A stretch of DNA of 31,194 nucleotides from Victivallales bacterium (GCA_016930955.1 JAFGFR010000211.1:1-31194), one strand, 5' to 3'. Counted from the first letter of the stretch, positions 1 through 15,306 are shown. Made by a program: numbers and translations. The notes: generated from the letters alone by a model not told the origin.

Positions 1-1508
1 AGCAGTTCAGGCAAAGCGGGGTGATGCACATCTTCGCCATATCCGGTCTGCACGTCGGGATGCTTGCCATGACGCTCTATCTGGTTTTCTGCTGGGTGCC
101 CTTCAGGGTCAGGCATGCGCTGGTGCCTTGTTTTTTGCTGCTCTATGTTTTGAGCACCGGGATGCAGTCGTCCGCGTTGCGGGCGTTTCTGATGATAGGC
201 ATCTGGTCTTTTCACCGATCGAGCCTCCGGTCGGTGTCGGCGTTGAACGCGGTGTTCCTTGCCGCGGTGCTGGTGTTGCTTTTCAATCCCTCGAGCTATC
301 TGGGCGCGGGTTTCCAGTATTCTTTCACTGTGGCGGGTTTTCTGGTGCTTTCTTGGAAGTCTTTGGACGGCTGGGTCAGGTGTCTGAACGAGAGACGGAT
401 GTGGATACCCGAACTTCCCGGGGTGTTCGGGTATCATTCGACGAGGCTGCGGGACAACGCGCTGAAGTCGCTGGCTGTCAGTCTTGTTGCGTGGCTTGCT
501 GGGACGGGTCTGAATCTTCTGCACCGCAATCTCTTCATCCCCGGCGCAGTGCTTGCGAACTTCGCGATACTGCCTTTTGTCTGGCTGTTGTTTCCGGTTG
601 CGGGACTGAATATCCTTCTGCTCCCGCTCGGGTATCGTTTTGGGGCCGGGCATGTCCTTGAGCTGCTGCTTAGGCTGATAGACGGTTTGAGTGCTTTGGG
701 CGCGGAGCATGGCGGGGGTCGGTATCTCGTGCCGCCGCCGCCGTGGGCGCTTGTGGTATTCTTCGTGTGCCTGCTGGTTTTTGTCACCGCCTCGTCCAGG
801 CGTGCCTTCATGTCCTCGGGCGTGCTGTTGTTCATCATGCTGGCTTACTGGCATTTTGTTTCCGACATGGCATCAGGGAAAGGTGAGATAGTGATGTTCC
901 ATGGGGACGAGAGCCAGGTCCCGTCGTTTGTGTGCATCCCTCCGGGCAGACGGGGTGTTTCGGTGGTGAACGTCGGTTCGCCGGGCAGGGCACGGAGCAT
1001 ATTGGCCTATCTTGGCGCGAAGGGAGCGAATTCGGTGGACATGCTGTATTTCACCGGGGCATCGAAGGATGTCTGCAACGGGTCTTGGCTGATGTTCTCG
1101 GGGGTGAGAGTGAGTCGTGCGGTGTTCCCGTTGGGATACAGCAGAAGCCGTTATGCGAAACTTGCCTTCAAATCAGCTGTCCGGGATGGAGTGGACATAG
1201 GCTGGCAGCGATCCAGACAGGATGGCAGTATTGAAAAATCTGTTTATTCAGACGCAGTTTTCCGTACGGCAGGCAACACTGGTGGATTTTACTTCTCGGC
1301 CTTCAATCCGACTGCGATTTTCAGCGCTTCGGTCGCCGAAGATGTCAACGGCGAGAAGCTGGTCGAGACGACATCCCCGGAAGGGAAAAAACTTTTCCGG
1401 TTGACGAACACCAACACCGAAGACATGATTTACTGTCTTGAGCCTACATCTGGGCGGTTTTCAATCCTTCAAACAGAATTTGTGCCACTTCGGCCGGTTC
1501 GACCCTGA
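1..1508 (+). CDS. comEC: ComEC/Rec2 family competence protein, 5'-partial (Competence domain plus degenerate C-terminal metallo-beta-lactamase-like region)
   Basis: HIFAISGLHVG and SALRAFLM motifs, LLFNPSSYLGAGFQYSF, many TM helices. The frame is open from the window edge (QFRQSGVMH...), so the true start lies upstream. Confidence 0.85.
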   Translation, partial: QFRQSGVMHIFAISGLHVGMLAMTLYLVFCWVPFRVRHALVPCFLLLYVLSTGMQSSALRAFLMIGIWSFHRSSLRSVSALNAVFLAAVLVLLFNPSSYLGAGFQYSFTVAGFLVLSWKSLDGWVRCLNERRMWIPELPGVFGYHSTRLRDNALKSLAVSLVAWLAGTGLNLLHRNLFIPGAVLANFAILPFVWLLFPVAGLNILLLPLGYRFGAGHVLELLLRLIDGLSALGAEHGGGRYLVPPPPWALVVFFVCLLVFVTASSRRAFMSSGVLLFIMLAYWHFVSDMASGKGEIVMFHGDESQVPSFVCIPPGRRGVSVVNVGSPGRARSILAYLGAKGANSVDMLYFTGASKDVCNGSWLMFSGVRVSRAVFPLGYSRSRYAKLAFKSAVRDGVDIGWQRSRQDGSIEKSVYSDAVFRTAGNTGGFYFSAFNPTAIFSASVAEDVNGEKLVETTSPEGKKLFRLTNTNTEDMIYCLEPTSGRFSILQTEFVPLRPVRP

Positions 1509-1923
1509 AAAACGCCCCTTTGCCCTCGAAGAATCCGTGGGTCTCAATCATATGGATATTCAGGTCGGTCCAGACAAGCTGCTTTCCGATGTCCATGCGT
1601 TCGGCGATGGTGATGCGTTTTCCATAGGCACCTTGATGCGGCCACGGACATACAAGGCTGCCCTTGAAGTCTTCACTTTTGACGCGCAGTTTCCCTGGCT
1701 CGGCTTCGATCCAGCCGCCAAGGCGGGGTATGGCCAGTTCCGTCAGTTCCCGCATCCTCGCGGCAACCCGAGCGGCAGTCAGCCCGAGTTTTTCCAGTCG
1801 GGAGCAGTCATCATCGACGACTTCCGCGGGATGCCGTGTATCGGTTCCCATGAACCCCCCGGCGACCAGTTTGGTCGAGCGAAGAATTTCTTCGAGTTTT
1901 TTTTCTTGTGGCGACTGTTTCAT
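1444..1923 (-). CDS. Uncharacterised 159-aa soluble protein, last gene of the Nqr/Rnf-like operon
   Basis: Starts 15 bp after the nqrF stop on the same strand; protein-like composition with CPWPH and HGFFEGKG motifs. Confidence 0.75.
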   Translation of the reverse strand: MKQSPQEKKLEEILRSTKLVAGGFMGTDTRHPAEVVDDDCSRLEKLGLTAARVAARMRELTELAIPRLGGWIEAEPGKLRVKSEDFKGSLVCPWPHQGAYGKRITIAERMDIGKQLVWTDLNIHMIETHGFFEGKGAFFRVEPAEVAQILFEGLKTAQM

Positions 1924-1938
1924 TTGGCATTCTCTGAT

Positions 1939-3051
1939 TTACGCGAATTTATCGAAATAGATTTTATCTTCTGGCATCCCCAGCGCGACAAAGACTTTGA
2001 TCGCGGCATCGATCATGCCGGGGCTGCCGCACAGGTAGCCTTCGTAGCCGTCCAGGCTGTCAAATTGCCGCTGGACCGCCTCGGTCACCAGGCCCGTTTC
2101 ACCGTCCCAGCTTTCGTCATCTTCTGGACTAGCCACGACCGGGGTAAAATCGAATCCCTCCAGGGCATCCTCGAAGGCTTCCATTTCGTCCGCCATGCAG
2201 AGGTCTTTGACTGCATTGCCGCCGAAGAAGTATTTGATCTGTCGGTTGATATGATTGTTCTGCATGTGATGCAGTATCGACACAAACGGCGCCATGCCGC
2301 TACCGCCGGCAACGAACACCATCGGCGCATCCGTGTCACTCAAGTGGAAATCGCCGTAGGGTCCGTTCATTCGGACGGGGTCGCCCTCTTTGAGGAAGTC
2401 AAAGCACCAGGTCGTGCAGATACCGTTGGGCACGCGGCGAATGATCAAGTCGACAATATTGTCGGCACTCGGGTCGGAGGCAATCGAGTAGGCCCGATAA
2501 ACCTCCTCGCTGTTGTCTTGGTATTGGGGGCACAGCAGCTGGAGGTACTGGCCGGCGGTGAATTTGATGACTGGCGGATCCTTGAGATCAAAACGAAACC
2601 GCTTCATGTCATACGTCAAGTCCTTGATCTCGGCACAGACTGCATGAAACTCTTTGACATTGAACAATTCATCGGGAATTTCGATCGCGATATTGTTGCG
2701 CACTTTGACCTGACAAGACAGGCGGATATTGTCGGCTTGTTCTTTTTTGGTCAAAAACGGGGTTTCGGTTGCCAGTACGGGCCCGGCACCATCAATCACC
2801 TTGACCTTGCAGACACCGCAGGTCCCGCGTCCACCGCAGGCACTGGGAATAAATATCTTTTCCTCCCGCAGAACCGTCAGCAACGATTCCCCGCCCTGGA
2901 CGTTCAGTTCTTTTTCATCGTTGACGATGATTTTACAGGGGCCGTAGTTGACGACGTATTTTTCACAGAACACCAAAATGGCAGCCAATGCAGCGCCGAT
3001 TGAACTGATAATTAATATGATAAATGCAAACTCTAGAATCGCCTGGAACAT
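1939..3051 (-). CDS. nqrF: NqrF-like NADH:acceptor oxidoreductase subunit (N-terminal TM anchor, 2Fe-2S, FAD- and NAD-binding domains)
   Basis: IPSACGGRGTCGVCKV...RLSCQ 2Fe-2S motif, RAYSIAS FAD motif, GPYG, AGGSGMAP, YLCGSPGM, C-terminal DKFA; TGATG overlap with the upstream gene. Confidence 0.9.
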   Translation of the reverse strand: MFQAILEFAFIILIISSIGAALAAILVFCEKYVVNYGPCKIIVNDEKELNVQGGESLLTVLREEKIFIPSACGGRGTCGVCKVKVIDGAGPVLATETPFLTKKEQADNIRLSCQVKVRNNIAIEIPDELFNVKEFHAVCAEIKDLTYDMKRFRFDLKDPPVIKFTAGQYLQLLCPQYQDNSEEVYRAYSIASDPSADNIVDLIIRRVPNGICTTWCFDFLKEGDPVRMNGPYGDFHLSDTDAPMVFVAGGSGMAPFVSILHHMQNNHINRQIKYFFGGNAVKDLCMADEMEAFEDALEGFDFTPVVASPEDDESWDGETGLVTEAVQRQFDSLDGYEGYLCGSPGMIDAAIKVFVALGMPEDKIYFDKFA

Positions 3052-3650
3052 CAGTTCAACACCCCTGTAAACCCGATAAATGCCAGAGCCATCAATCCAG
3101 CGATGATCAGAGTGATGCCGGGCCCGCGCAGTCCTTCCGGGATGCGGGATTCGTTAAGCCGTTGACGGATGCCGGCCATCGCAATGATAGCCAGGAACCA
3201 GCCGACACCGGCACCGAAACCCCAGCCGATGGTGACAATGAACGAGTATTCGCGGATCACCATAAACAGCGACGCACCCAGAATCGCGCAGTTGACCGTA
3301 ATCAACGGCAGGAAGATACCGAGGCTCTGATAGAGCTTGGGTGAGTAGCGGTCAATGACCATCTCAACGAACTGCACGAACGCGGCGATGATGATAATGA
3401 ACAGGATAAAGCGGAAGAACTCCAGTTCCAGCGGCACCAGCACATAACGATAAGCCAGCCAGTTAAGCAGCGTCGTACAGGTCATCACGAAGATGACCGC
3501 CCCCCCGAGTCCGGATGCGGTTTTGACCTCGCGCGAGACGCTGGTGAACGGGCACATGCCCAAAAATGTGGTCAGCAGGATATTTTGTGTAAAAATGGCC
3601 GCGAAGCAGGTAACCATCGCCAGCCAGACTTCTGCGCCGACAGCGTTCAT
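3051..3650 (-). CDS. nqrE: NqrE/RnfA family membrane subunit
   Basis: FLGMCPF, GIFLPLITVNCAILG and GFGAGVGW motifs. Start reassigned to MNAVG (3650), which overlaps the upstream stop as ATGA. Confidence 0.88.
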   Translation of the reverse strand: MNAVGAEVWLAMVTCFAAIFTQNILLTTFLGMCPFTSVSREVKTASGLGGAVIFVMTCTTLLNWLAYRYVLVPLELEFFRFILFIIIIAAFVQFVEMVIDRYSPKLYQSLGIFLPLITVNCAILGASLFMVIREYSFIVTIGWGFGAGVGWFLAIIAMAGIRQRLNESRIPEGLRGPGITLIIAGLMALAFIGFTGVLN

Positions 3651-4267
3651 GATTTCGTTTCCCTCATTTTGATCGAGCGGCACAGCCAGATGATGGACGC
3701 CAGCGCGAAAAACGCACCCGGCGGCATGACCATGATGATCCAGTTGTCCCAATATGCCGTTGAAAAGTACGGCATATTATAGCCAAGCAGACTCCCCATG
3801 CCGAATAATTCACGGAAAACTGAAATAGCCAGCAGGACAAATGAATAACCCATCCCGCTGAAGAGCCCGTCAATGAACGCCGGCCGCATGGGATTGGCGC
3901 CAGCGAATGCCTCACAGCGACCCATGATGATGCAATTGGTGATGATAAGACCGACAAAGGGGCCGAGATTACGGCTCATCTGAGGCCAGTAAGCCTTGAG
4001 CATCAAATCGACGATTATCACATAAAAGGCTATGACCAGCGTTTGGACCATCATGCGGATATTTTTGGGTGTCCAGTCTCGCAAAAGCGAGACCGTCATG
4101 CAACTCATGGCCGTCACCAGCGTCAGCGACACACACATCACCAGCGTATTGAGTACGACATTGGTTACCGCCAGCGTGCTGCAGATGCCCAATACCTGAC
4201 GGAAAATGGGGTTGTCACGCCAGAGGCCGTCCAGCATAATTTGCCTTGTGGGTTTGGCAGGGCTCAT
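3647..4267 (-). CDS. nqrD: NqrD/RnfE family membrane subunit
   Basis: DNPIFRQVLGICSTLAVT, GLIITNCIIMGRCEAFA and MPPGAFF motifs; ATGA coupling at both ends. Confidence 0.9.
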   Translation of the reverse strand: MSPAKPTRQIMLDGLWRDNPIFRQVLGICSTLAVTNVVLNTLVMCVSLTLVTAMSCMTVSLLRDWTPKNIRMMVQTLVIAFYVIIVDLMLKAYWPQMSRNLGPFVGLIITNCIIMGRCEAFAGANPMRPAFIDGLFSGMGYSFVLLAISVFRELFGMGSLLGYNMPYFSTAYWDNWIIMVMPPGAFFALASIIWLCRSIKMRETKS

Positions 4268-4875
4268 GGCGTGATCTCCTTAGCCTGCATCGCATCCAGC
4301 CATGCCCGAATATCCCGGTTCATCAGTGCCTCTAGGCGAATGCTGGTCTGTGTTGCGCCGGTGACGGCGTGGACTTTATTGTCATCAAGTGTCCGAGCCG
4401 CCGGCACGATGCCGATGGGTTCGTCGCTGTACTCAATTTTTTTATCGATAAATTGCCGGCGAAATTCATCCTCGTCAATCCGTGCGCCCAGGCCGGGGGT
4501 TTCCTTCTGCTCGTAGAAGGCTACTCCTCTAATGGTTTGGCAGTCGGCGGCAATTCCGATGATGCCCCGGATCTTATCCCAAAAGCCCTGTCCTTCAAAT
4601 GGGACGGCATAGCCGGCAAGCTGACCGTCTTTTTTATAGCGATACGCGCCGATGCGGTCGTCCTTTTCAAATCGTTCAGTGAAGATATCATGGATCTGCC
4701 GGTTGTCCTGATATTGGATTTCCGGGAAGGCCTGCACCACGGCCCGTTCGAAACCAAGCTGTTCGTTGACTTCGACCCGATGACGCGTAAGCTGTGCCAG
4801 CCCGATCAGTATCGAACTGAAGAATGCCGTGATCACAAACATATAGATGATCGGATAGTATGGCTTGTCTTTCAT
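4264..4875 (-). CDS. nqrC: NqrC/RnfG family FMN-binding subunit
   Basis: N-terminal TM helix, GQGFWDKIRG, QKETPGLG, and VTGATQTS (covalent FMN Thr motif). Confidence 0.88.
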   Translation of the reverse strand: MKDKPYYPIIYMFVITAFFSSILIGLAQLTRHRVEVNEQLGFERAVVQAFPEIQYQDNRQIHDIFTERFEKDDRIGAYRYKKDGQLAGYAVPFEGQGFWDKIRGIIGIAADCQTIRGVAFYEQKETPGLGARIDEDEFRRQFIDKKIEYSDEPIGIVPAARTLDDNKVHAVTGATQTSIRLEALMNRDIRAWLDAMQAKEITP

Positions 4876-6221
4876 GCGGACACCTCTTTGGGTTTATGCC
4901 TGTCCTTAAACGCATTGATGCCATAATCAATGATCGGCGCGAACATATTGCCCAGAAGAATCGAGAACATCAACCCTCCGTTAAAGATCGAAAAATTACG
5001 AATGACCATGGTAGCGGCAGCAATGAGAATGCCGTAAAAAATCCTTCCCGGCTCCGTCCGTGGAGAACTTACCGGGTCGGTAGCCATAAAGAACGCCCCG
5101 AACAAAAATCCACCGCCTAAAACGGCCGGCCAGGCACCGGGAACCGGCTTGATGCCACACCAGAACAACACTTGGTTCAACGCAGCATAGGTGATTATGA
5201 CGGAAAGGATCGTCGTACGGCTGGCAGTTTTTGTCCAGTATAGATAAACCCCGCCGATCAAGATGAGAACCACGCTGGTAACACCCATGGTCCCACTGAG
5301 GCGCCCCAGGGTCAACGCATTGAAAAGCGTTGATTTGTCAACCTGAATCGTTTCGTAATCGGCAATTTCAAAAGGAATTTCAGCTGAATACACTGTCTTT
5401 TCGGCATCGGGGTCTAATGTCAGATTGCCCGATTTGAGACGGGCCATTGGTGTGGCTCCGGTCGTAACTATTGATCCATCCGCGCGGGTCGCAGTCGTCC
5501 ACTGCGTCAAAGCGCCCATGGGGCCTTCTGCGGCGGGAAGCCATATCCCGGTCAAAGCAACCGGGAAGCAGACATAGACAAAACAGCGCCCTGCCAGTGC
5601 AGGGTTGAAAATATTCCGCCCGAAGCCGCCAAATACTTCTTTGGAAAAGATGACGGCGAATCCCATTCCGACCGCCAGCACATGCCAGCCCACACCGGGC
5701 GGCATCACCAGCGCAAACAGCACGGCTGTCACCAGGACCGCTTCCGAGACCGGTTCTTTCCGGCGGCGGCAAAAAAACCATTCGAGCAAGAAACCCCAGA
5801 GACAGCAAAAAACAATCATCGCCAGAGAACGCCATCCGAAATAATAGACCGACCCAAACACGCAGGGCATCAAAGCAAGCAATACCTTCCTCATCGCCGG
5901 CTGTCGCCGCATGAGGGATTGTTTCTCTTGTGAGCCAGTTTCGAAACTACACGTGGCCGCGCGGCCTGCCATTTTGGATGCGAGGCCACGCCGATGCGGA
6001 AGTGGGCATGCCTGCCTGGTCTGCCCCGACCGATCCGGCGTGGCATTCGCGCCAAAAGAGCTTGCCGCCCAAAGGGTTGAGGCGGAGGCACAGCATACGC
6101 CACGGCGAAATGGCCAGCACAGACAGCTTAAAGTATGCACCAGCCATTTCGCCGCACCGCCTGCCGCGCCTGCGCTCCCAATGCGGTTCACGCGGAGTTT
6201 TGAAACTGGCTCTTGTGCCAT
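4872..6221 (-). CDS. nqrB: NqrB/RnfD family membrane subunit carrying an in-frame 95-codon repeat insertion after codon 3
   Basis: KEVFGGFGRNIFNPALAGR, TTGATP (FMN Thr), FMATDPVSSP and FSILLGNMFAP motifs. GAAGGGA SD-like sequence upstream of ATG 6221. Residues ~4-98 are translated repeat DNA; ATG 5912 is an alternative start. Confidence 0.85.
   Translation of the reverse strand: MAQEPVSKLRVNRIGSAGAAGGAAKWLVHTLSCLCWPFRRGVCCASASTLWAASSFGANATPDRSGQTRQACPLPHRRGLASKMAGRAATCSFETGSQEKQSLMRRQPAMRKVLLALMPCVFGSVYYFGWRSLAMIVFCCLWGFLLEWFFCRRRKEPVSEAVLVTAVLFALVMPPGVGWHVLAVGMGFAVIFSKEVFGGFGRNIFNPALAGRCFVYVCFPVALTGIWLPAAEGPMGALTQWTTATRADGSIVTTGATPMARLKSGNLTLDPDAEKTVYSAEIPFEIADYETIQVDKSTLFNALTLGRLSGTMGVTSVVLILIGGVYLYWTKTASRTTILSVIITYAALNQVLFWCGIKPVPGAWPAVLGGGFLFGAFFMATDPVSSPRTEPGRIFYGILIAAATMVIRNFSIFNGGLMFSILLGNMFAPIIDYGINAFKDRHKPKEVSA
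5932..6212. mobile_element. 281-bp MITE-like element (copy A) with ~19-bp terminal inverted repeats and 4-bp TSD TTGT
   Basis: Left end GAGCCAGTTTCGAAACTAC, right end GGAGTTTTGAAACTGGCTC; TTGT at 5928-5931 and 6213-6216; no transposase. Confidence 0.85.
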
Positions 6222-6304
6222 CTTTTAGAATCCCTTCAAATTATCAGCATCAACACATATAAGACAAAAATAAACCATGAACCTAAATATTAGCACTGTC
6301 ATCT

Positions 6305-6420: not shown

Positions 6421-7602
6421 CTACACAATGCCTAAAGTTCTGTGCCTGTCAAGAATATTGTCGGCCAATTCATCCAGAGCTGAATAAGTCTCCTCGGAAG
6501 GCATCCCTTTGGCCAACACCGGCTCGAATGCCTCGCATTTCAGGTTCCCCATGACTGCGGTCAATTGTTCGATCATTTTGCTGCCCCAGCCGTAGGAGCC
6601 GATAATGCCGACGAATTTGGTTTTTGGTCTGAGGGCATTGACCAGTGCGGCACAATAGATTGCCGATGGATGGGCTCCGACCAGAACCGTAGGGGAACCT
6701 AGGACGACAGTCGCCGCGTCGACCAATTCGATCACGATCTCTCCGATGTCGGCCACAGTCAGATTGAACAGCTTGACACCGACGCCACGGCTCATCAACG
6801 CCTCCACGAGATACTCTGCCATCTTGCGGGTACTGTCATGCATGGAGACGTAAGGGATGACGACCATGTTGCTGACCTTATCTTCGTTGATCCAGTCTTT
6901 GTATGCATCCACGATCAGCGCCGGGCGACTATAAACCGGACCATGGCTTGGCGCGATCATCTGGATATCCAGATCTTCAAGTTTTTTCAGATTGCCACGG
7001 ATTGAACCGCGGAACGGCATCATGATCTCTCCATAGTAGCGTCTAGCCGCTTCGAGCACGCGATGTTCGTCATCGACATACAGATTGCTGGCTGCCTGGT
7101 GCGAGCCGAAAAAGTCGCAGGAGAATAGAATATTGTCTTCCGGCAGCCACGTGCTCATCGTTTCCGGCCAGTGCACCCACGGGGTATAGATGAATTGCAG
7201 CGTTTTGTCTCCCAACGACAAGGTTTCACCGTCCTGAACCTCGATGAAACGATCCTCTCCGATATGCAGATGGTCCATCAACATTGATTTGCATTTGGGA
7301 TTCGTGACGATCTTAGCGCCCGGGTACACCCGCAGCATGTCCTGAAGACTGCCGGAATGATCCTGTTCGGCGTGATGACTGATGATGTAGTCGATCTTGT
7401 CAGCGCCAGCCTTGACAAGATGATCGATCAGCATCTCGACCTTGGTCGGGTCGACAGTGTCCAGCAATGCACTTTTCTCACTGCCCTTGATGAAGTAGGC
7501 ATTATAGCTGGTGCCATCCGGCAGCGGAATCAGTTCGTCAAACAGACGCCGATCCCAATCCTGAACGCCGACTTCATAAACATTCTTAACAAGTGTTCTC
7601 AT
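6421..7602 (-). CDS. fprA: FprA-family flavodiiron protein (metallo-beta-lactamase plus flavodoxin domains; O2/NO reductase family)
   Basis: DGTSYNAY, HHAEQDHSGS, HWPET, DFFGSH, APSHG, GSPT and GSYGWG motifs; GAGGTG SD upstream. Confidence 0.92.
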   Translation of the reverse strand: MRTLVKNVYEVGVQDWDRRLFDELIPLPDGTSYNAYFIKGSEKSALLDTVDPTKVEMLIDHLVKAGADKIDYIISHHAEQDHSGSLQDMLRVYPGAKIVTNPKCKSMLMDHLHIGEDRFIEVQDGETLSLGDKTLQFIYTPWVHWPETMSTWLPEDNILFSCDFFGSHQAASNLYVDDEHRVLEAARRYYGEIMMPFRGSIRGNLKKLEDLDIQMIAPSHGPVYSRPALIVDAYKDWINEDKVSNMVVIPYVSMHDSTRKMAEYLVEALMSRGVGVKLFNLTVADIGEIVIELVDAATVVLGSPTVLVGAHPSAIYCAALVNALRPKTKFVGIIGSYGWGSKMIEQLTAVMGNLKCEAFEPVLAKGMPSEETYSALDELADNILDRHRTLGIV

Positions 7603-7646: not shown

Positions 7647-9161
7647 CTACTGCTTACCATGAGTCTGAGCAGCCGCCTTCCTGCGGTATAGCTCGATGCT
7701 CATGTCAACCTCGCGTCTTACATGGGGATATTGTATCCCGCTCGAGGCATCCAGCAGAAGCTTTATCGCCTCGTCGTACTGTTCCTTCACGGCAAGCATT
7801 TCCGCTTGTACCCTGACCTTCCGGTAGTTTTCCATCATAGCTTCCTGCAACTCCTTCTCCTGTGTGAGCTGAACTATCTTCTGCTCCAGCCCCGACTCGG
7901 CGGGAAGACCCTTGCTCTTGAGCTTGGCCTGTTTGTATAATTCGATCATTGACTCGTATTCTCCAGGATGATCGGCCATGAAACATTCAGCCTTCTTTAT
8001 CGCTTTTAACGAAGAATCCTTCTTGTGGTGATCCTGGATGAGCAAGGCCGCCACCCCTGCTATTGCGAGAAGCAACAGATAAATGAAGATGCTCGAGGTC
8101 GCGCTTCCGGAAGATTTGGAGACAGCGACTGGCAAGGGCACTTTCGGCGAAGGCGAAGCGCGGCGACGCCCCTTGTTCACGGTCAGTGCCTTCTGCCTCT
8201 TCCTCGGCTTGCGCTTCGGGTCAATGGCCCGAAGCGCAGCTTGTGCATCCTCGATGAACCCCTGCCATGAGTCATATCGATCGGCAGGTGTCTTGCCCAT
8301 CATCTTGCGCATTATCTCCACAGTCGCTTTTGTGACCTCTGCTGTGGGGTTGCGGGAAAGAGGCTCGGGGAAGGGCTCAGTGGTATGCATCTCAATGATC
8401 TCGACGACATCCGGCGCATCGAAGGGAGGCACCCCGACAACGAGGTTGTAGAGTGTCGCGCCAAGGGAATAGAGGTCGCTGCTCCAGCTAAGTCTTGCCG
8501 CCACTGTCTGCTCGGGGCTCATATAGAAGGGGGAGCCGAGAATATGATCCTCGCCGCCGGAGCTTTCGCCAATATACTGGGCAATGCCCATGTCCATCAA
8601 AAAGATTTCGCCGCTCTTGTCCAGCATCAGATTGCCCGGCTTGATGTCCTTGTGGAGAAGCCCGTAAGACTCCCAAGCGTAGCTCAGCGCATGCCCGATC
8701 TTTATACCGATGAGCAGTGCCTCGTTCTCCGGGATAAAGAACTTCCTCGACAGCACGTGCTCGAGGTCCTCGCCTTCGACATAGGCAGTGGCGAGATAGT
8801 AGGTCCCCTCGTGCTCGCCGGCATCTATGGCAGGTATTATATTGGGATGGTTGAGCCTTCCGGAGACCTGTGCCTCATTGAGGAACTGCTCGACCGAGGC
8901 CTTGTTGGAGGTCAAGGATTTAAGCAGCACCTTGAGCGCGACAAGCCTTTCCATGGAAATCTGCCTGGCTAGATATACGTTCCCCATCCCCCCCCTGCCG
9001 ATGATGCGAATGATCTCGAACCCGCCCATGATCGTTCCTTGCGGAAGGTCTTTCTCCGGCAGCGAGACAGTCCCGTTGCAATGCGGACAGGCAACTATTT
9101 CAGAATCGCCTTCATCGCTCTCGAACACCTTGTGGCAGTGCGGACAGTCATATGATCTCAT
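7647..9161 (-). CDS. Hanks-type Ser/Thr protein kinase with N-terminal Zn-ribbon, one TM helix and a C-terminal helical domain
   Basis: CPHC...CPHC, GRGGMGNVY, VALK, HKDIKPGN, DMG, GSPFYMSPE, SDLYSLG; hydrophobic IFIYLLLLAIAGVAALLI. Confidence 0.92.
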   Translation of the reverse strand: MRSYDCPHCHKVFESDEGDSEIVACPHCNGTVSLPEKDLPQGTIMGGFEIIRIIGRGGMGNVYLARQISMERLVALKVLLKSLTSNKASVEQFLNEAQVSGRLNHPNIIPAIDAGEHEGTYYLATAYVEGEDLEHVLSRKFFIPENEALLIGIKIGHALSYAWESYGLLHKDIKPGNLMLDKSGEIFLMDMGIAQYIGESSGGEDHILGSPFYMSPEQTVAARLSWSSDLYSLGATLYNLVVGVPPFDAPDVVEIIEMHTTEPFPEPLSRNPTAEVTKATVEIMRKMMGKTPADRYDSWQGFIEDAQAALRAIDPKRKPRKRQKALTVNKGRRRASPSPKVPLPVAVSKSSGSATSSIFIYLLLLAIAGVAALLIQDHHKKDSSLKAIKKAECFMADHPGEYESMIELYKQAKLKSKGLPAESGLEQKIVQLTQEKELQEAMMENYRKVRVQAEMLAVKEQYDEAIKLLLDASSGIQYPHVRREVDMSIELYRRKAAAQTHGKQ

Positions 9162-9313
9162 AAAAAAACCTCGGCACCATGCCGGTCCTATTTCAACAGT
9201 GTCGCTTGATTCCCTGGAGAACCAAGCTAAATTTTCACCCGGTCAATCTATACCGGATAACGCCTCCGGTCAAACTTGAAAACGGCTATGTCAGCTTAAA
9301 AATCGGGAAAACA

Positions 9314-10486
9314 ATGACTCGGAGAGAAGTCAACGAATACCTTGAGCAGTATTTCCTTGAAGTGATAGACAACAGGCATCTTTCGAGGTCTGATGTAATT
9401 GTCAGGGGGCTTTTGTTCGCGATGTCCCGTGTATATAGGCGTGCTGTGCAGTTCAGGCACTGGGTGTACGACAAGCGGATATTCAGGAACAAGGCTCTAG
9501 GCTGTCTGGTGGTCAGCATAGGAAACCTGACGTGCGGCGGCACGGGGAAGACGCCTGTGGTGGAGGTTTTCGCGAAAACCCTTAGCCAAAAGGGCAGGAA
9601 GGTTGCAGTTTTGAGCCGCGGATACCGCAGCCGTGACAGGAGCATGCTGGAGAAGTTGAAGGAAAGATTGTTCTCTAAACGACATGCAGTCCCTCCGCGT
9701 GTCGTATCCGACGGCGAGAATCTGCTTCTCGACTCTTCTTCAGCCGGGGACGAGCCATACATGCTCGCATCGAATCTCAAGAACGTGGTTGTTTTGGTTG
9801 ACAAGGACCGAGTGAAGTCCGGGCTTTTCGCGATATCCGAATTCTCCGCCGACACTCTGATCCTTGACGACGGCTTCCAGTATCTGGACCTGAAGCCCCG
9901 TCTTAACATAGTATTGGTGGACTCCACTCAGCCATTCCACAACCACCATGTTCTGCCCCGCGGGCTTCTGAGGGAGCCGATAAAGAACATCAGACGTGCA
10001 GACTACATATTCCTGACCAAGTCCCGGGGCGGCAAACACCTGAGGCACATAAAAAGCTTCCTCCGAAGGCATAACCGACGTGCTGAGATAATCGAATGCC
10101 GACATGAGCCGAAGTACCTTGAGGACGTGTACGACAAGAACAACCGCAAAGGGCTGGAGCTTCTTGAAGGTGCCCGCATAGCGGCCTTGAGCGGGATAGC
10201 CAATCCCCAGAGTTTCGAGGACTTCCTCGATGATCTCGGTGCCGAGATCGTCTACAAGGAGAGGTTCATGGACCATCACCGCTACAGGCAGCAGGAGCTG
10301 ATTGACTTTGTCGTGGAGGCCAAGAGGGTGAAGGCGGACCTGATCGTGACCACGGAAAAGGATGCAGTGCGTTTCCCGAGGCTCGACAGGAGGGATATCC
10401 CAATATTCTTCATGCGTGTTGAGATAGGCATAATCAGTGGGCAAGAGAACTTCGACCAGTGCATATCGAGGATATGTTTCGTATGA
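9314..10486 (+). CDS. lpxK: Tetraacyldisaccharide 4'-kinase
   Basis: VSIGNLTCGGTGKTP P-loop, LSRGY, GDEPYMLA, LDDGFQYL, LPRGLLREP, DHHRY, TTEKDAVR. Start placed at MTRRE (9314) rather than 9179. Confidence 0.93.
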   Translation: MTRREVNEYLEQYFLEVIDNRHLSRSDVIVRGLLFAMSRVYRRAVQFRHWVYDKRIFRNKALGCLVVSIGNLTCGGTGKTPVVEVFAKTLSQKGRKVAVLSRGYRSRDRSMLEKLKERLFSKRHAVPPRVVSDGENLLLDSSSAGDEPYMLASNLKNVVVLVDKDRVKSGLFAISEFSADTLILDDGFQYLDLKPRLNIVLVDSTQPFHNHHVLPRGLLREPIKNIRRADYIFLTKSRGGKHLRHIKSFLRRHNRRAEIIECRHEPKYLEDVYDKNNRKGLELLEGARIAALSGIANPQSFEDFLDDLGAEIVYKERFMDHHRYRQQELIDFVVEAKRVKADLIVTTEKDAVRFPRLDRRDIPIFFMRVEIGIISGQENFDQCISRICFV

Positions 10487-10538
10487 TTCCTGAGGCCTGC
10501 CGGCAGAATATGAATGAGATTTGTTATAGGGAGCGACG

Positions 10539-11930
10539 ATGAAGACGGTAAGGGAGTTTTTCAAGATCGAGCAGCGGGGCAGCAGCATCAGAACGGAGGT
10601 GTTCGCCGGAGTGACGACATTCATGACGATGTCGTATATAATATTTCTGCAGCCGCTGATCCTTTCCGGGGCTCTTTCCGGCACATCCACCGGGATGCCC
10701 GCGGATGCCCTTATATCCGGGGTCTGTGTGGCCGCGGCATTCGGCTCGATACTGATGGGCCTTCTCGCCAACTACCCGATAGCGCTTGCGCCGGGAATGG
10801 GGGAGAATTTCTTTTTTGTCGCCGTGATTTCCTCTTGCGTCGCGCTGGGCATATCCGAGCCGGAAACAGCATGGCAGACAGCCTTGGGCGTGGTTTTCAT
10901 CTCGGGAGCGATCTTCCTTGTCCTTTCAGTTTTGAACATACGTGAGCTGCTCCTGGTCTCGATCAGCCAGAGCATGAAGCACGCCATGGCCGCTGGCATA
11001 GGGTTGTTCATCGCGCTGATAGGCTTCAAGAACGGCGGCCTGATACATACGGTCCACGGAAACTACATTTTGAACACTGAAGGGCTGTACAGCGCCGCCT
11101 CGCTGATCTTTTTCACCGGACTAATCGTAACGGCTTCGCTTCATGTGCTCAAGGTCAGAGGATCGGTGCTGTGGGGCATCCTCTGCGGGGCAGCTATGGC
11201 ATTTCTTCTCGGTCAGGTAAAGTTCGAGGGGATAGTCGGGAAACCGGCGGGAATGGGTGAGCTATTCGCAGGCATGGATTTGGTGAATGTATTCTCCAAC
11301 ATCCACAAACTGCTGCCGTTCATCATCATATTCACGTTCATGGATGTGTTTGACACTTTGGGCACTCTTGTCGGGGTGGCGACCCAATCCGGGCTGATGA
11401 AGGGCAACAATCTGCCGAACTCGAGGAAAGCCTTCGCGGCGGACTCCATCGCGACGATGTTCGGGGTGTTCTGCGGCCAGAGCACTGTCACGAGTTACAT
11501 CGAGAGCTCCACGGGAGTCGAGTACGGCGGGAGAACCGGATTGGCCGCAGTCACCTCAGGGTTTTGCTTCGTGATCGCAGTGTTCTTCACCCCTCTGATC
11601 GCGATGACAGGAAACTATCCGGGAGGCGTCAACCCGATAACCGCTCCGGCTCTGGTGATCGTGGGAGCCATAATGATGCGCAGTGTAACGGAAATAGACT
11701 GGAAGGATTTCAGCGAGGCAGTGCCGTCTTTTATGATAATTGCAGGTATCTCCTTCACCTTCAGCATATCCGACGGCCTGATGCTGGGGTTTGTGGCGTA
11801 CCCGGCAATAAAACTCTTCGGGGGAAAGGCAAGGCAGATAGGCTGGCTGAACTACCTTATCGGAGGAACCCTGCTTTTCTACTTGCTTTGCGTCAAAACA
11901 GGCATTTTCGGGACATGGCTCTCAAATTGA
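10539..11930 (+). CDS. NCS2/AzgA-family nucleobase (guanine/hypoxanthine/xanthine) permease
   Basis: EVFAGVTTFMTMSYI, LAPGMGENFFF, DVFDTLGT, TSYIESSTGVEYGGRTG and TFSISDG motifs; ~12 TM helices. Confidence 0.92.
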   Translation: MKTVREFFKIEQRGSSIRTEVFAGVTTFMTMSYIIFLQPLILSGALSGTSTGMPADALISGVCVAAAFGSILMGLLANYPIALAPGMGENFFFVAVISSCVALGISEPETAWQTALGVVFISGAIFLVLSVLNIRELLLVSISQSMKHAMAAGIGLFIALIGFKNGGLIHTVHGNYILNTEGLYSAASLIFFTGLIVTASLHVLKVRGSVLWGILCGAAMAFLLGQVKFEGIVGKPAGMGELFAGMDLVNVFSNIHKLLPFIIIFTFMDVFDTLGTLVGVATQSGLMKGNNLPNSRKAFAADSIATMFGVFCGQSTVTSYIESSTGVEYGGRTGLAAVTSGFCFVIAVFFTPLIAMTGNYPGGVNPITAPALVIVGAIMMRSVTEIDWKDFSEAVPSFMIIAGISFTFSISDGLMLGFVAYPAIKLFGGKARQIGWLNYLIGGTLLFYLLCVKTGIFGTWLSN

Positions 11931-12023
11931 ACCTGCCATACATCTCAGGATCAACTTCAAGACTAACCGTTCACGTCAGGACAGCAAAAACACTGGAAAA
12001 TCTGCTCTTCCATGCAACCACAC

Positions 12024-12051
12024 TTGATTTCCAACTCTAGACCTGTATAAT
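12024..12051 (+). promoter_or_regulatory. Putative sigma70 promoter for lpxC
   Basis: TTGATT(12024-12029)-N16-TATAAT(12046-12051), about 56 bp upstream of the lpxC ATG. Confidence 0.55.
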
Positions 12052-12107
12052 CCGACTTGCTGAGGAGCCAATAAACTTATCATTATAACAGAACGAGATG
12101 AACCCTG

Positions 12108-12950
12108 ATGGAAGAAATGCAGAACACGCTCAAGAGGGAGACGGGATTGTCGGGAATCGCACTGCACACCGGTGTCAGGGCAAACTTGACCTTGCGGCCT
12201 GCGGAAAAGGACAGGGGCATAGTCTTTCGAAGAGTTGACCTTCCCGGGAAGCCCTCGGTCAAGGCTTTGGCGCAAAACGTGGTGGATATAAGGCGTGGGA
12301 CGACGATCGCGAGCGGGGATGCGACGGTTTGCACGGTAGAGCATGTCCTGGCGACTCTGAACGCCTGCGGCATAGACAACGCCCTTGTGGATATGGACGG
12401 TCCGGAGCCGCCGATCGCCGACGGCAGCGCTCTGCCTTATCTTGACATCGTCAGCGATGCCGGAGTGGCGGAGCAGGATGCTGCCGCAAGGAGCTGGACA
12501 CCGGGAACGGTAATGGCGTTCGAGGATAACGGCTCCATCTCGGTGGTGATCCCCAATGATGGAGGATTGAAAATATCCTGCATGGTGGAGTATCCATCAT
12601 ACGCGCTGGGGACACAGTACTACTCCGCCTTGATATCCTTCGAGGAGTTTGCCGCCAACCTGGCTCCGGCCAGGACTCTGGTAGAGTTCCGCGACCTCGA
12701 GAAGCTCATAGCAATGGGGCTGGTCAAAGGAGGTAGTCTGGACAACGCGATCGTGATACATGAGGGTGCCTTGATCAGCAAGGAAAACCTTAGATTCCCG
12801 GACGAGATCGTCAGACACAAGGTGCTGGACATAATCGGCGACATGGCCCTCCTTGGCCTCCGTTTGAACGCACATCTCCTCTCGATCAGGCCAGGGCACG
12901 CATCGAACGTCTGTGTCGCCAAAGAGCTTGCGAAACTGATCTCACCATAG
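12108..12950 (+). CDS. lpxC: UDP-3-O-acyl-N-acetylglucosamine deacetylase (stand-alone, no FabZ fusion)
   Basis: GIALHTG, TVEHVLA, EPPIADGSA, GGSLDNA, EIVRHKVLDIIGD and GH motifs. Confidence 0.95.
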   Translation: MEEMQNTLKRETGLSGIALHTGVRANLTLRPAEKDRGIVFRRVDLPGKPSVKALAQNVVDIRRGTTIASGDATVCTVEHVLATLNACGIDNALVDMDGPEPPIADGSALPYLDIVSDAGVAEQDAAARSWTPGTVMAFEDNGSISVVIPNDGGLKISCMVEYPSYALGTQYYSALISFEEFAANLAPARTLVEFRDLEKLIAMGLVKGGSLDNAIVIHEGALISKENLRFPDEIVRHKVLDIIGDMALLGLRLNAHLLSIRPGHASNVCVAKELAKLISP

Positions 12951-12952
12951 GA

Positions 12953-13053
12953 AAGCCGGTTTCAAAACTCCGCGTGAACCGCGTTGGGAACACCGTCTGC
13001 CGTGCCTCCACCCCAACCCTTTGGGCGGCCACGGGTAGTTTTGAAATTGGCTC
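12953..13053. mobile_element. 101-bp MITE-like element (copy B)
   Basis: AAGCCGGTTTCAAAACTCCGCGTGAACCG ... CCACGGGTAGTTTTGAAATTGGCTC; starts 2 bp after the lpxC stop; no intact TSD (AGGA vs TGAA). Confidence 0.8.
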
Positions 13054-15234: not shown

Positions 15235-15306
15235 GAGCCGGTTTCAAAACTCAGCGTGAACCATGTTGGAGACGCAGGCGCGGCAGACGGCGCGGCGATA
15301 TGGCTC
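15235..15306. mobile_element. 72-bp internally shortened MITE-like element (copy C)
   Basis: GAGCCGGTTTCAAAACTCAGCGTGAACC...GCGGCGATATGGCTC; shares the left module with copies A, B and D; its end overlaps the AraC stop codon. Confidence 0.75.

What the first reader, a model, noticed from the sequence alone, without database searches (positions are those of the whole stretch)
1939..6221. Nqr/Rnf hybrid operon with NqrF but no NqrA/RnfC subunit
Seen: five translationally coupled genes (ATGA/TGATG overlaps) in B-C-D-E-F order, with repeat DNA and fprA upstream instead of nqrA/rnfC, and no apbE. Established: Na+-NQR needs NqrA-F, and Rnf needs RnfC and RnfB. The ~354-aa B subunit (after removing the insertion) is RnfD-sized, while the terminal subunit is clearly NqrF. 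Inference: an evolutionary intermediate or a variant complex with a different electron exit.
Basis: partly seen in the sequence, partly recalled or inferred. Interest (0 to 1): 0.62.

Follow-up and report, generated by a model that had tools for sequence, protein, structure and literature searches.

The report
NqrA-less Nqr-type pump with sixth gene
This is an intact six-gene operon for a trimmed relative of the sodium-pumping NADH dehydrogenase that lacks the NqrA subunit by design and always carries a small protein of unknown fold. The class has been remarked on in genome papers since 2014, but its electron acceptor is still unknown.

Summary
Five minus-strand genes in B-C-D-E-F order (6221..1939) are joined by ATGA/TGATG overlaps, and no nqrA, rnfC or rnfB is in the locus or the MAG (72% complete). 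apbE is on another contig.

X directly follows the NqrF-like gene in 78 of 80 related loci.

B-C-D-E-F-X without an A subunit recurs across Sedimentisphaerales and in MAGs labelled Firmicutes, Spirochaetota and Victivallales. Relatives that are 92-94% complete lack nqrA.

Paralog-rooted NqrD/NqrE trees place the complex as sister to canonical Nqr, so it is not an Nqr/Rnf mosaic.

A quinone acceptor is unlikely: B has no quinone-type helix III, and five genomes show no menA or mqnA-type genes. Neighbours suggest an oxygen-stress acceptor, but this is inferred.

NqrA-less nqrBCDEF has been noted in genome papers since 2014, and this scan found the class, with X, before on other DNA. Verdict: a new member of a known but uncharacterised kind.

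The parts
4872..6221 (-). nqrB-like subunit. The native start is ATG 6221, and the gene is interrupted after codon 3 by an in-frame MITE. It is 354 aa without the element and 449 aa as it stands. Internal ATGs at 5912 and 5894 are alternative starts.
   Evidence: PF03116 matches at 2.5e-81. It scores below the rnfD and nqrB NCBIfam cut-offs. The best PDB match is V. cholerae NqrB (122 bits), against RnfD at 91-107 bits. The flavinylation motif T-G-A-T-P is conserved. The N-terminus matches relatives after excision.
5932..6212 (.). A 281-bp MITE with terminal inverted repeats (GAGCCAGTTTC[A/G]AAACT) and a 4-bp target duplication (ACAA on the minus strand). It adds 95 stop-free codons to nqrB.
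   Evidence: blastn against the MAG gave 446 HSPs, with many full-length copies at 87-91% identity on other contigs. Boundaries come from the sequence.
4264..4875 (-). nqrC/rnfG-like FMN subunit (203 aa) with an N-terminal TM helix and a V-T-G-A-T flavinylation motif.
   Evidence: FMN_bind matches at 4e-13. nqrC scores 89.5 bits and rnfG 72.6 bits, both below cut-off. The motif was read.
3647..4267 (-). nqrD-like membrane subunit (206 aa). Both Fe-S cysteines are present (LGICS, ITNC).
   Evidence: NF006777 nqrD scores 230.8 bits against a cut-off of 235; rnfE scores 179-192 bits. It sits in the tree as sister to canonical NqrD. The sequence was read.
3051..3650 (-). nqrE-like membrane subunit (199 aa from ATG 3650). 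Both Fe-S cysteines are present (LGMC, VNC).
   Evidence: TIGR01940 nqrE scores 228.1 bits against a cut-off of 247.6; rnfA scores 216.8 bits. The start was set by the ATGA overlap with D.
1939..3051 (-). nqrF-like reductase (370 aa): a TM anchor, a 2Fe-2S ferredoxin domain (C-x5-C-x2-C...C), FAD (RAYS) and an NAD(P)H-binding FNR domain.
   Evidence: Pfam finds Fer2, FAD_binding_6 and NAD_binding_1. TIGR01941 scores 271.5 bits against a cut-off of 295. The best PDB match is full-length V. cholerae NqrF, 181.7 bits.
1444..1923 (-). Sixth gene X (159 aa): soluble, with no Pfam or NCBIfam family. Conserved features are G-F-[LM]-G-x-D-x-R, C-P-[WF] and D-L-x-I-H-x-I-x-x-H-G-F.
   Evidence: No family match. 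It follows the F gene in 78 of 80 loci. The AF2 model has pLDDT 93.8. No solved fold was found. The family has 1629 clusters. It is present after F in Firmicutes-, Spirochaetota- and Victivallales-labelled loci.
6421..7602 (-). Flavodiiron protein (fprA-type), the upstream neighbour. It is context, not part of the complex.
   Evidence: ODP/Lactamase_B + Flavodoxin_1 domains. An fprA homologue lies about 1.6 kb upstream of B in 22 related loci.

Best explanation
The region encodes a complete NqrA-less, Nqr-lineage membrane redox complex: B, C, D, E, F and a sixth soluble protein X. The predicted electron path is as follows. NAD(P)H is oxidised at the membrane-anchored F subunit (FAD, then 2Fe-2S). 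Electrons pass to the intramembrane Fe-S site held by the four cysteines of D and E. They then reach the FMN on C, which is covalently attached by the ApbE encoded on contig C240, and next the FMN on B. They leave B on the cytoplasmic side. By homology, this path is coupled to Na+ or H+ export. The exit is not a quinone, because the complex has no NqrA, B is RnfD-sized, and helix III carries Gly-Phe instead of Nqr's Gly-Gly. The most likely acceptor is a soluble redox protein of the oxygen/ROS-defence network (rubredoxin, rubrerythrin, flavodiiron protein or superoxide reductase). X would act as an F-associated adapter or first acceptor.

Shown here: the gene set, the cofactor motifs, conservation of the A-less layout, the F-X linkage and the placement beside canonical Nqr. 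Inferred: ion pumping, the non-quinone exit and the identity of the acceptor, for which I give about 0.35. In this MAG, nqrB also carries an in-frame MITE after codon 3. Whether the gene is still expressed, from ATG 6221 or from the internal ATGs, is open.
For: - Family matches and overlapping junctions define the five genes.
- The cofactor motifs are intact in all five subunits.
- ApbE is present elsewhere in the genome.
- The same B-C-D-E-F-X operon, with unrelated upstream genes, occurs in G016, G012 and G033.
- It occurs complete in 56 of 80 loci found through X, and 9 more are cut by contig ends.
- It occurs in MAGs labelled Firmicutes, Spirochaetota and Victivallales.
- nqrA was found in none of the same-order genomes searched, against 21 of 151 across the phylum.
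- G033 (94% complete) has the operon but no rnfC over cut-off.
- In the paralog-rooted D/E tree, A-less plus Nqr form a clade (support 98 and 100), and A-less is sister to canonical Nqr. In the B tree the A-less sequences form their own clade (support 94).
- At helix III, canonical Nqr has G-G, while A-less B has G-F, G-Y or G-L.
- menA and VitK2_biosynth were not found in G000, G001, G016, G012 or G033.
- Close relatives show the synteny fprA, desulfoferrodoxin, ferritin, rubrerythrin-like, [BCDEFX], G6PD, Rex.
- The Spirochaetota-labelled locus has 6PGD, G6PD and PGL upstream, and rubredoxin, nitroreductase, ferritin and Fur downstream.
- X is called as one protein with rubredoxin, rubrerythrin, AhpC/TSA or nitroreductase in some records.
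- The predicted F-X complex gave weak support: score 0.57, best control 0.02. That mark was reached by 58 of 80 solved complexes and 2 of 110 mismatched pairs, but at 0.60 or under by only 7 of the 80 solved complexes and by both mismatches. The runs agree in at least 67% of contacts, and the partner's pLDDT is at least 85.
Against: - The MAG is only 72% complete, so absence in this genome proves little on its own.
- No biochemical data exist for any member of this class.
- The reference set for the trees is small: four canonical Nqr sequences from Planctomycetota, two Rnf from relatives, and E. coli Rsx.
- A UbiA-family gene is present in four of the five genomes, so an unusual prenylated carrier is not excluded.
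- F-X pairs occur without BCDE, and with an F that lacks the TM anchor. X may therefore be a partner of the reductase rather than a subunit of the membrane complex.
- In this window the SOR, ferritin and rubrerythrin genes are not next to the operon; only more distant homologues lie on other contigs.
- At least one 'fusion' (P0129) looks like a read-through of adjacent genes on a poor contig.
- The MITE may have silenced or altered nqrB in this population.
Confidence: 0.78

Rival explanations
1. The complex is an ordinary Na+-NQR or Rnf whose sixth subunit (nqrA, or rnfC/rnfB) is encoded elsewhere, in the unassembled 28% of the MAG or borrowed in trans from a canonical rnf operon.
For: The MAG is 72% complete. 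Relatives G012, G016 and G001 carry a canonical rnfB-rnfC-rnfD operon elsewhere. G015 and G011 also have rnfC.
Against: No nqrA was found in any same-order genome searched, including three at 92-94% completeness. The rnfC genes sit in complete rnf operons with their own rnfD. G033 (94%) and G029 (88%) have the A-less operon without rnfC over cut-off. The layout recurs in other phyla. B lacks the NqrA-contacting N-terminal extension.
Confidence: 0.05
2. The complex is an evolutionary intermediate. It descends from the Rnf-to-Nqr transition: RnfB has already been replaced by NqrF, and RnfC was lost instead of becoming NqrA.
For: The A-less clade is sister to canonical Nqr, not nested in it, in the D, E and B trees. 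B and C are RnfD/RnfG-sized, and helix III keeps a bulky residue as Rnf does. NCBIfam scores fall between the two families.
Against: A sister position is equally what an early nqrA loss from a full Nqr would give. Only four canonical Nqr references, all from one phylum, were available. No ancestral-state or rooting test was possible.
Confidence: 0.3
3. In this particular MAG the operon is crippled. The MITE after codon 3 of nqrB blocks or alters B, so the locus is decaying.
For: A 281-bp element lies inside the coding region. The SOR, ferritin and rubrerythrin genes that sit between fprA and B in close relatives are missing here.
Against: The insertion is in frame and free of stops. Two in-frame ATGs (5912, 5894) lie just before the first TM segment, and the gene caller used 5894 (P0002). 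All six ORFs are intact, with all cofactor motifs. A promoter-like site remains upstream at 6267-6240, a consensus match only.
Confidence: 0.2
4. X is not part of the membrane complex. F plus X form a two-component soluble-type NAD(P)H-dependent redox system, and the BCDE module merely shares the F subunit.
For: Eight loci with enough upstream DNA have F-X only. In five of them F lacks the TM anchor. Three of those genomes show only Rnf-type D/E homologues. The predicted F-X contact has weak support (score 0.57, best control 0.02, with the counts given under the best explanation).
Against: X sits at the end of a complete BCDEF operon in 56 of 80 loci and in three other phyla. Two F-X-only loci have a TM-anchored F, and an A-less-type D lies elsewhere in those genomes.
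Confidence: 0.25

Closest known systems
Na+-translocating NADH:quinone oxidoreductase, NqrABCDEF (Vibrio cholerae; PDB 7XK3, 8A1T)
   Same: B, C, D, E and F are homologous, in the same gene order. The same cofactor motifs are present: flavinylated Thr in B and C, four Cys in D/E, and a TM anchor, 2Fe-2S, FAD and FNR domain in F. NqrB and NqrF are the best PDB matches. D and E group with canonical Nqr against Rnf.
   Different: There is no NqrA. B lacks about 55 N-terminal residues and the roughly 50-residue insert, and has Gly-Phe instead of Gly-Gly in helix III. F lacks about 30 residues. All five subunits score below the NCBIfam equivalog cut-offs. A sixth protein X is added. The host appears to have no menaquinone pathway.
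Rnf ferredoxin:NAD+ oxidoreductase, RnfABCDGE (PDB 7ZC6, 9ERI, 8AHX; E. coli Rsx)
   Same: It shares the membrane core (D/G/E/A = B/C/D/E). B and C are of RnfD/RnfG size, and helix III carries a bulky residue.
   Different: There is no RnfC and no RnfB; NqrF takes the input position. The D/E subunits are phylogenetically outside Rnf. Relatives carry a separate, complete rnf operon.
NqrA-less nqrBCDEF clusters remarked on in genome papers: Thermotoga (Pseudothermotoga) thermarum and lettingae (PMC4148951), Clostridium ultunense (PMC5924567), Ca. Izimaplasma ZiA1 (PMC6256511)
   Same: The five genes are in the same order, NqrA is missing, the hosts are strict anaerobes, and canonical Rnf co-occurs in the same genome. 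The papers state that the other reaction partner is unknown.
   Different: Those papers do not mention a sixth gene or an oxidative-stress context. I could not fetch those sequences, so orthology with them was not tested directly. I did show the B-C-D-E-F-X layout in Firmicutes-, Spirochaetota- and Victivallales-labelled MAGs.
'NQR/RNF-like' flavinylated systems of Meheust et al. 2021 (PMC8238504)
   Same: They are partial Nqr/Rnf systems thought to use NAD(P)H and an ApbE-flavinylated subunit.
   Different: That class is defined by a single protein fusing an NqrB/RnfD membrane domain to an NqrF-type NAD-binding domain, and it lacks D/E. Here B and F are separate and D/E are present. Their operational definition of 'NQR' (NqrF near an FMN-binding gene) would have counted the present type as ordinary NQR.
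NAD(P)H:rubredoxin oxidoreductase - rubredoxin - flavodiiron protein/rubrerythrin chains of anaerobes (from my own knowledge, not tested here)
   Same: This is a functional analogy only. NAD(P)H-derived electrons feed O2/ROS-reducing enzymes, and the same enzyme families are neighbours of this operon.
   Different: Those chains are soluble and not energy-conserving, and they have no homology to B-E or X.

Membership tests
Na+-NQR (NqrABCDEF) | NqrA subunit encoded with the complex | tested here: not met
   TIGR01936 finds nothing in the MAG. In relatives it gives only weak hits, which are RnfC N-terminal domains inside rnf operons. None was found in same-order genomes searched.
Na+-NQR (NqrABCDEF) | NqrF: TM anchor + 2Fe-2S ferredoxin + FAD/NADH FNR domain as electron input | tested here: met
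   Pfam domains and motifs are present. It aligns over its full length to V. cholerae NqrF at 181.7 bits. TIGR01941 scores 271.5 bits, just under the cut-off of 295.
Na+-NQR (NqrABCDEF) | Covalent-FMN threonines in B and C; four Fe-S cysteines in D/E | tested here: met
   B has T-G-A-T-P, conserved across the clade. C has V-T-G-A-T. D has LGICS and ITNC. E has LGMC and VNC.
Na+-NQR (NqrABCDEF) | NqrB-type quinone site: long N-terminus and Gly-Gly in helix III | tested here: not met
   B aligns to NqrB only from about residue 137 and lacks the insert. Helix III is G-F, against G-G in four canonical NqrB sequences.
Na+-NQR (NqrABCDEF) | Scores over the curated NCBIfam equivalog cut-offs for nqrB-F | tested here: not met
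   All five are below cut-off: B 193 vs 350, C 89.5 vs 144, D 230.8 vs 235, E 228 vs 247.6, F 271.5 vs 295.
Na+-NQR (NqrABCDEF) | Quinone reduction and Na+ pumping | not testable with these tools
   This needs biochemistry. Indirectly, no menA or mqnA-type genes were found in five genomes.
Rnf (RnfABCDGE) | RnfC (FMN, 2x[4Fe-4S], NAD site) and RnfB (poly-ferredoxin) subunits | tested here: not met
   Neither is in the locus. No rnfC or rnfB scores over cut-off in the MAG. Relatives' rnfB/C belong to separate rnf operons.
Rnf (RnfABCDGE) | Membrane subunits group with RnfD/G/E/A in trees | tested here: not met
   D and E group with Nqr and exclude Rnf, with support 98 and 100. The reference set is small.
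NqrA-less NqrBCDEF(+X) class | Translationally coupled B-C-D-E-F, no A/RnfC/RnfB, RnfD-sized B | tested here: met
   The same layout occurs in 56 of 80 loci and in three other phyla.
NqrA-less NqrBCDEF(+X) class | ~150-160-aa X protein directly after F | tested here: met
   Window 1923..1444. F is directly upstream of X in 78 of 80 loci. X homologues at 33-35% identity follow F in L123-L125.
NqrA-less NqrBCDEF(+X) class | Orthology with the published Pseudothermotoga and C. ultunense clusters | not tested
Only the papers' descriptions were compared.

The most novel reading that the evidence does not exclude
BCDEF plus X is an ion-pumping NAD(P)H:rubredoxin, rubrerythrin or flavodiiron-protein oxidoreductase. 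That would make it a quinone- and cytochrome-free 'respiratory' chain that lets strict anaerobes conserve energy while reducing O2 and reactive oxygen species. X, a protein of new fold with a conserved Cys/His/His site, would be the electron-exit adapter that replaces NqrA/RnfC.
Probability: 0.25. Interest if true: 0.85.

Novelty: new member of a known kind. Interest (0 to 1): 0.5.

Why it matters
NqrA-less nqrBCDEF operons have stood in anaerobe genomes since at least 2014, with the remark that the other reaction partner is unknown, and the 2025 RNF/NQR review I read does not treat them. This window adds a Phycisphaerae member. Together with its relatives it narrows the question in four ways:

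- The complex belongs to the Nqr lineage.
- It is A-less by design.
- It probably does not reduce quinone.
- It is tied to an uncharacterised protein X, which is itself tied to the NqrF-type reductase and to oxygen-stress and NADPH-generating genes.

This gives a directly testable hypothesis for the acceptor. If it proves right, it would describe a new way for strict anaerobes to gain energy from oxygen detoxification. The MITE inside nqrB is a local curiosity of this MAG.

Tried and rejected
- **Fold of X.** Foldseek against the PDB gave nothing at E <= 0.001; the best rows were PqqB/MBL fragments with TM 0.22. VIA-align against 48,161 chains gave a best Z of 2.5. A profile of X against PDB sequences gave only Nup54 coiled-coil hits at E = 0.006, which I treat as chance. 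No fold or function is assigned from these.
- **Atlas.** It returned only 'hypothetical protein' clusters from Planctomycetota, Spirochaetota, Thermodesulfobacteriota and Cloacimonadota. These are leads on spread only.
- **Context of distant X representatives.** The contigs were 1-2 kb and showed little. One had an NqrF-like gene upstream.
- **Model coordinates.** They are not available to scripts, so I could not check whether C92, H124 and H129 cluster in space.
- **Published A-less operons.** I could not fetch the Pseudothermotoga or C. ultunense sequences.
- **The 'NQR/RNF-like' class of PMC8238504.** I considered it and rejected it as a different architecture, a B-F fusion without D/E.
- **X as an NqrM-type maturation factor.** I considered this and set it aside. 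X has no TM helix or Cys cluster and is twice the size. This rests on my own knowledge of NqrM and was not tested.
- **B-family tree.** With only three clades it cannot say which two are sisters, so I relied on the paralog-rooted D/E tree.

Full report
**What is there.** The window is contig C323 of a 2.7-Mb MAG in 342 contigs, 72% complete. Titles of related records place it in Planctomycetota, class Phycisphaerae, among Sedimentisphaerales/Anaerohalosphaeraceae-type anaerobes.

Six co-oriented genes lie on the minus strand:

| Gene | Coordinates | Match |
|---|---|---|
| B | 6221..4872 | PF03116 |
| C | 4875..4264 | FMN_bind |
| D | 4267..3647 | Rnf-Nqr |
| E | 3650..3051 | Rnf-Nqr |
| F | 3051..1939 | Fer2 + FAD_binding_6 + NAD_binding_1 |
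| X | 1923..1444 | 159 aa, no Pfam or NCBIfam match; starts 15 nt after F |

The listed 233-aa E ORF starts too early. The ATG at 3650 overlaps the D stop and gives 199 aa.

**The 'repeat DNA' and the size of B.**
- Bases 5932-6212 are a 281-bp element with terminal inverted repeats and a 4-bp target duplication.
- blastn against the MAG gave 446 HSPs, with many full-length copies at 87-91% identity on other contigs. Fragments also occur elsewhere in this window.
- The element sits after codon 3 of nqrB, is in frame and has no stop.
- Removing it with one duplication gives a 354-aa protein starting MAQEKQSLMRRQPAMRKV. This matches the relatives' MAQAQKKQTLLRKQPAMRKV.

Whether B is now made with 95 extra residues, or from the in-frame ATGs at 5912 or 5894 (the gene caller chose 5894), cannot be told from sequence.

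**Is the missing subunit really missing?** In this MAG:
- nqrA was not found.
- No rnfC or rnfB scores over its cut-off.
- There is only one PF03116 gene.
- One ApbE gene lies on contig C240.

Because the MAG is incomplete, I looked at relatives.
- The same B-C-D-E-F-X operon occurs in G016, G012 and G033 (92-94% complete), with unrelated genes upstream: ThuA, an unknown gene, and a divergent GntR regulator.
- A scan of one genome per species with the X alignment gave 263 loci, of which the best 80 were kept.
- Of those 80, 56 carry all six genes and 9 more are cut by contig ends.
- F lies directly upstream of X in 78 of the 80 loci.
- No conserved A-like gene precedes B.
- nqrA occurs in 21 of 151 genomes sampled across the phylum, but in none of the same-order genomes searched.
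- Weak 'nqrA' hits in G012, G016 and G001 are RnfC proteins inside complete rnfB-rnfC-rnfD operons of their own.
- G033 (94%) and G029 (88%) have the A-less operon and no rnfC over cut-off.

The A-less state is therefore a design feature, not an assembly gap. It also does not depend on a canonical Rnf.

**Beyond the phylum.** Close homologues of the short B of G016 are named by NCBI as coming from Victivallales, Spirochaetota and Firmicutes MAGs. Their contigs show the same layout, B-C-D-E-F followed by a 155-159-aa gene without a family. That gene is an X homologue at 33-35% identity.

**Where it belongs.**
- All five subunits score below the curated NCBIfam cut-offs of both families. D is nearest to nqrD, while B scores about equally on rnfD and nqrB.
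- Against solved structures, B is closest to V. cholerae NqrB (122 bits, against 91-107 for RnfD). It aligns only from about residue 137 and lacks NqrB's N-terminus and insert.
- F aligns over its full length to V. cholerae NqrF.
- I built trees with four canonical Nqr operons from Planctomycetota, two Rnf operons from relatives, and E. coli Rsx.
- The A-less B subunits form their own clade, with support 94.
- In the NqrD/RnfE + NqrE/RnfA tree, where each paralog roots the other, A-less and canonical Nqr form a clade that excludes Rnf (support 98 and 100). Within it the A-less sequences are sister to canonical Nqr.

This makes the complex a branch of the Nqr lineage rather than a mosaic of the two families. 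The reference set is too small to say whether it split before NqrA arose or lost nqrA early.

**Cofactors and exit.** All input and transmembrane cofactor motifs are present:
- F has the TM anchor, C-x5-C-x2-C...C, RAYS and a GGSGMAP-type NAD(P)H site.
- D and E carry two cysteines each.
- C and B carry the flavinylation threonines.

Several points argue against quinone as the acceptor:
- At the helix-III position where canonical NqrB has Gly-Gly, the A-less B subunits have Gly-Phe, Gly-Tyr or Gly-Leu. Reyes-Prieto et al. link that Gly-Gly to the opening of the quinone site (PMC4014512).
- menA and the futalosine-pathway family VitK2_biosynth were not found in this MAG, its congener, or the three relatives at 92-94% completeness.
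- A UbiA-family gene of unknown role exists in four of the five genomes and in none of G016's contigs.

These are indirect indications.

**The sixth gene.**
- X gives a confident model (pLDDT 93.8) with no match among solved structures.
- The family is large: 1629 clusters at 50% identity.
- Motifs conserved across phyla are G-F-[LM]-G-x-D-x-R, R-G-x-[LIV]-x-C-P-[WF], and D-L-x-I-H-x-I-x-x-H-G-F-[FY]-x-G-x-G. That gives one cysteine and two histidines as possible metal ligands.
- X is tied to F more tightly than to the membrane module. Eight loci with ample upstream DNA have only F-X.
- In five of those loci F has no TM anchor.
- Three of those genomes show only Rnf-type D/E homologues. Two others have an anchored F and an A-less-type D elsewhere in the genome.
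- A structure-prediction test of F(36-370) with X gave weak support. The score was 0.57 and the best control 0.02. That mark was reached by 58 of 80 solved complexes and 2 of 110 mismatched pairs. At 0.60 or under it was reached by only 7 of the 80 solved complexes and by both mismatches. The runs agree in at least 67% of contacts, and the partner's pLDDT is at least 85.

**Context.**
- In the closest relatives the operon is flanked as fprA, desulfoferrodoxin, ferritin, rubrerythrin-like, [BCDEFX], glucose-6-phosphate dehydrogenase, Rex.
- The counts of loci are: fprA 22, rubrerythrin-like 18, ferritin 14, SOR 11, G6PD 28, Rex 13.
- The Spirochaetota-labelled locus has 6PGD, G6PD and lactonase directly upstream. 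Downstream it has rubredoxin, nitroreductase, NifU, ferritin and Fur.
- Some database proteins join X to rubredoxin, rubrerythrin, AhpC/TSA or nitroreductase. At least the rubredoxin case looks like a read-through of adjacent genes, so I count these as adjacency evidence.
- In this window only fprA remains next to the operon. SOR, ferritin and rubrerythrin homologues lie on other contigs at 39-51% identity.

This pattern points to oxygen/ROS defence and to NAD(P)H supply. It does not show what the complex reduces.

**Most likely mechanism.**
- NAD(P)H reduces F.
- Electrons cross the membrane core as in Nqr and Rnf, driving Na+ or H+ export.
- They leave B on the cytoplasmic side to a soluble acceptor rather than to a quinone.
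- X, bound to F and perhaps also to B, is the adapter or first acceptor toward rubredoxin-, rubrerythrin- or flavodiiron-type enzymes.

Only the parts list and its conservation are shown. Pumping, direction, nucleotide preference and the acceptor are inferred.

**What is known.**
- It has also been noted for Clostridium ultunense (PMC5924567) and Ca. Izimaplasma ZiA1 (PMC6256511).
- In my term searches of the 2025 RNF/NQR review and the 2014 evolution paper, I found no mention of an NqrA-less form.
- The 'NQR/RNF-like' class of PMC8238504 has a different architecture.
- I found no paper that mentions X.
- This scan has met the same class, with the sixth gene and the oxygen-stress link, in several other genomes. 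My results agree with those notes and were obtained from this window's own relatives.

**Verdict.** It is a new, Phycisphaerae member of a known but uncharacterised kind, and this copy has a MITE in nqrB.

Noticed in passing
window 5932-6212; further pieces at 28461-28566, 15235-15305, 12954-13029, 31111-31194: A highly repeated 281-bp MITE family. blastn of 5880-6300 gave 446 HSPs across the MAG, with many full-length copies at 87-91% identity. This may contribute to the MAG being in 342 contigs.
   Followed up: partly
L027, L043, L098, L032, L082 (F-X only loci): Here an NqrF-like reductase without a TM anchor is followed directly by X, with no B-E genes nearby. The genomes of L027, L043 and L097 have only Rnf-type D/E homologues. 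This is a soluble F'-X two-gene module.
   Followed up: partly
L020:8296-11152 (G010): A lone NqrF-like gene (56% identical to the window's F) stands without B-E or X. It lies next to a 577-aa ORF that joins ribose-5-phosphate isomerase B (LacAB_rpiB) to serine hydroxymethyltransferase.
   Followed up: no
L114:89-2710 (G043): In one canonical nqr operon of the phylum, nqrA and nqrB lie in one continuous 873-aa open frame. This is a possible A-B fusion or a start-codon artefact.
   Followed up: no
L104:1351-2748 (G001, same genus): The congener's rnfC is split into 195-aa and 262-aa ORFs. This is either a frameshift or an assembly error.
   Followed up: no
L124:3679-14227 (Spirochaetota-labelled contig): The oxidative pentose-phosphate genes (6PGD, G6PD, lactonase) are directly upstream of B-C-D-E-F-X. 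Rubredoxin, nitroreductase, NifU, ferritin and Fur are downstream. This is the clearest NADPH and oxygen-stress context seen.
   Followed up: partly
window 7647-9161 (-), 21-1508 (+): A PknB-type Ser/Thr kinase (504 aa) lies upstream of fprA. A ComEC fragment converges on the end of X. Here ComEC lies where close relatives have G6PD-Rex.
   Followed up: no
window 9179-12950: The lipid A genes lpxK and lpxC flank a xanthine/uracil-family permease.
   Followed up: no
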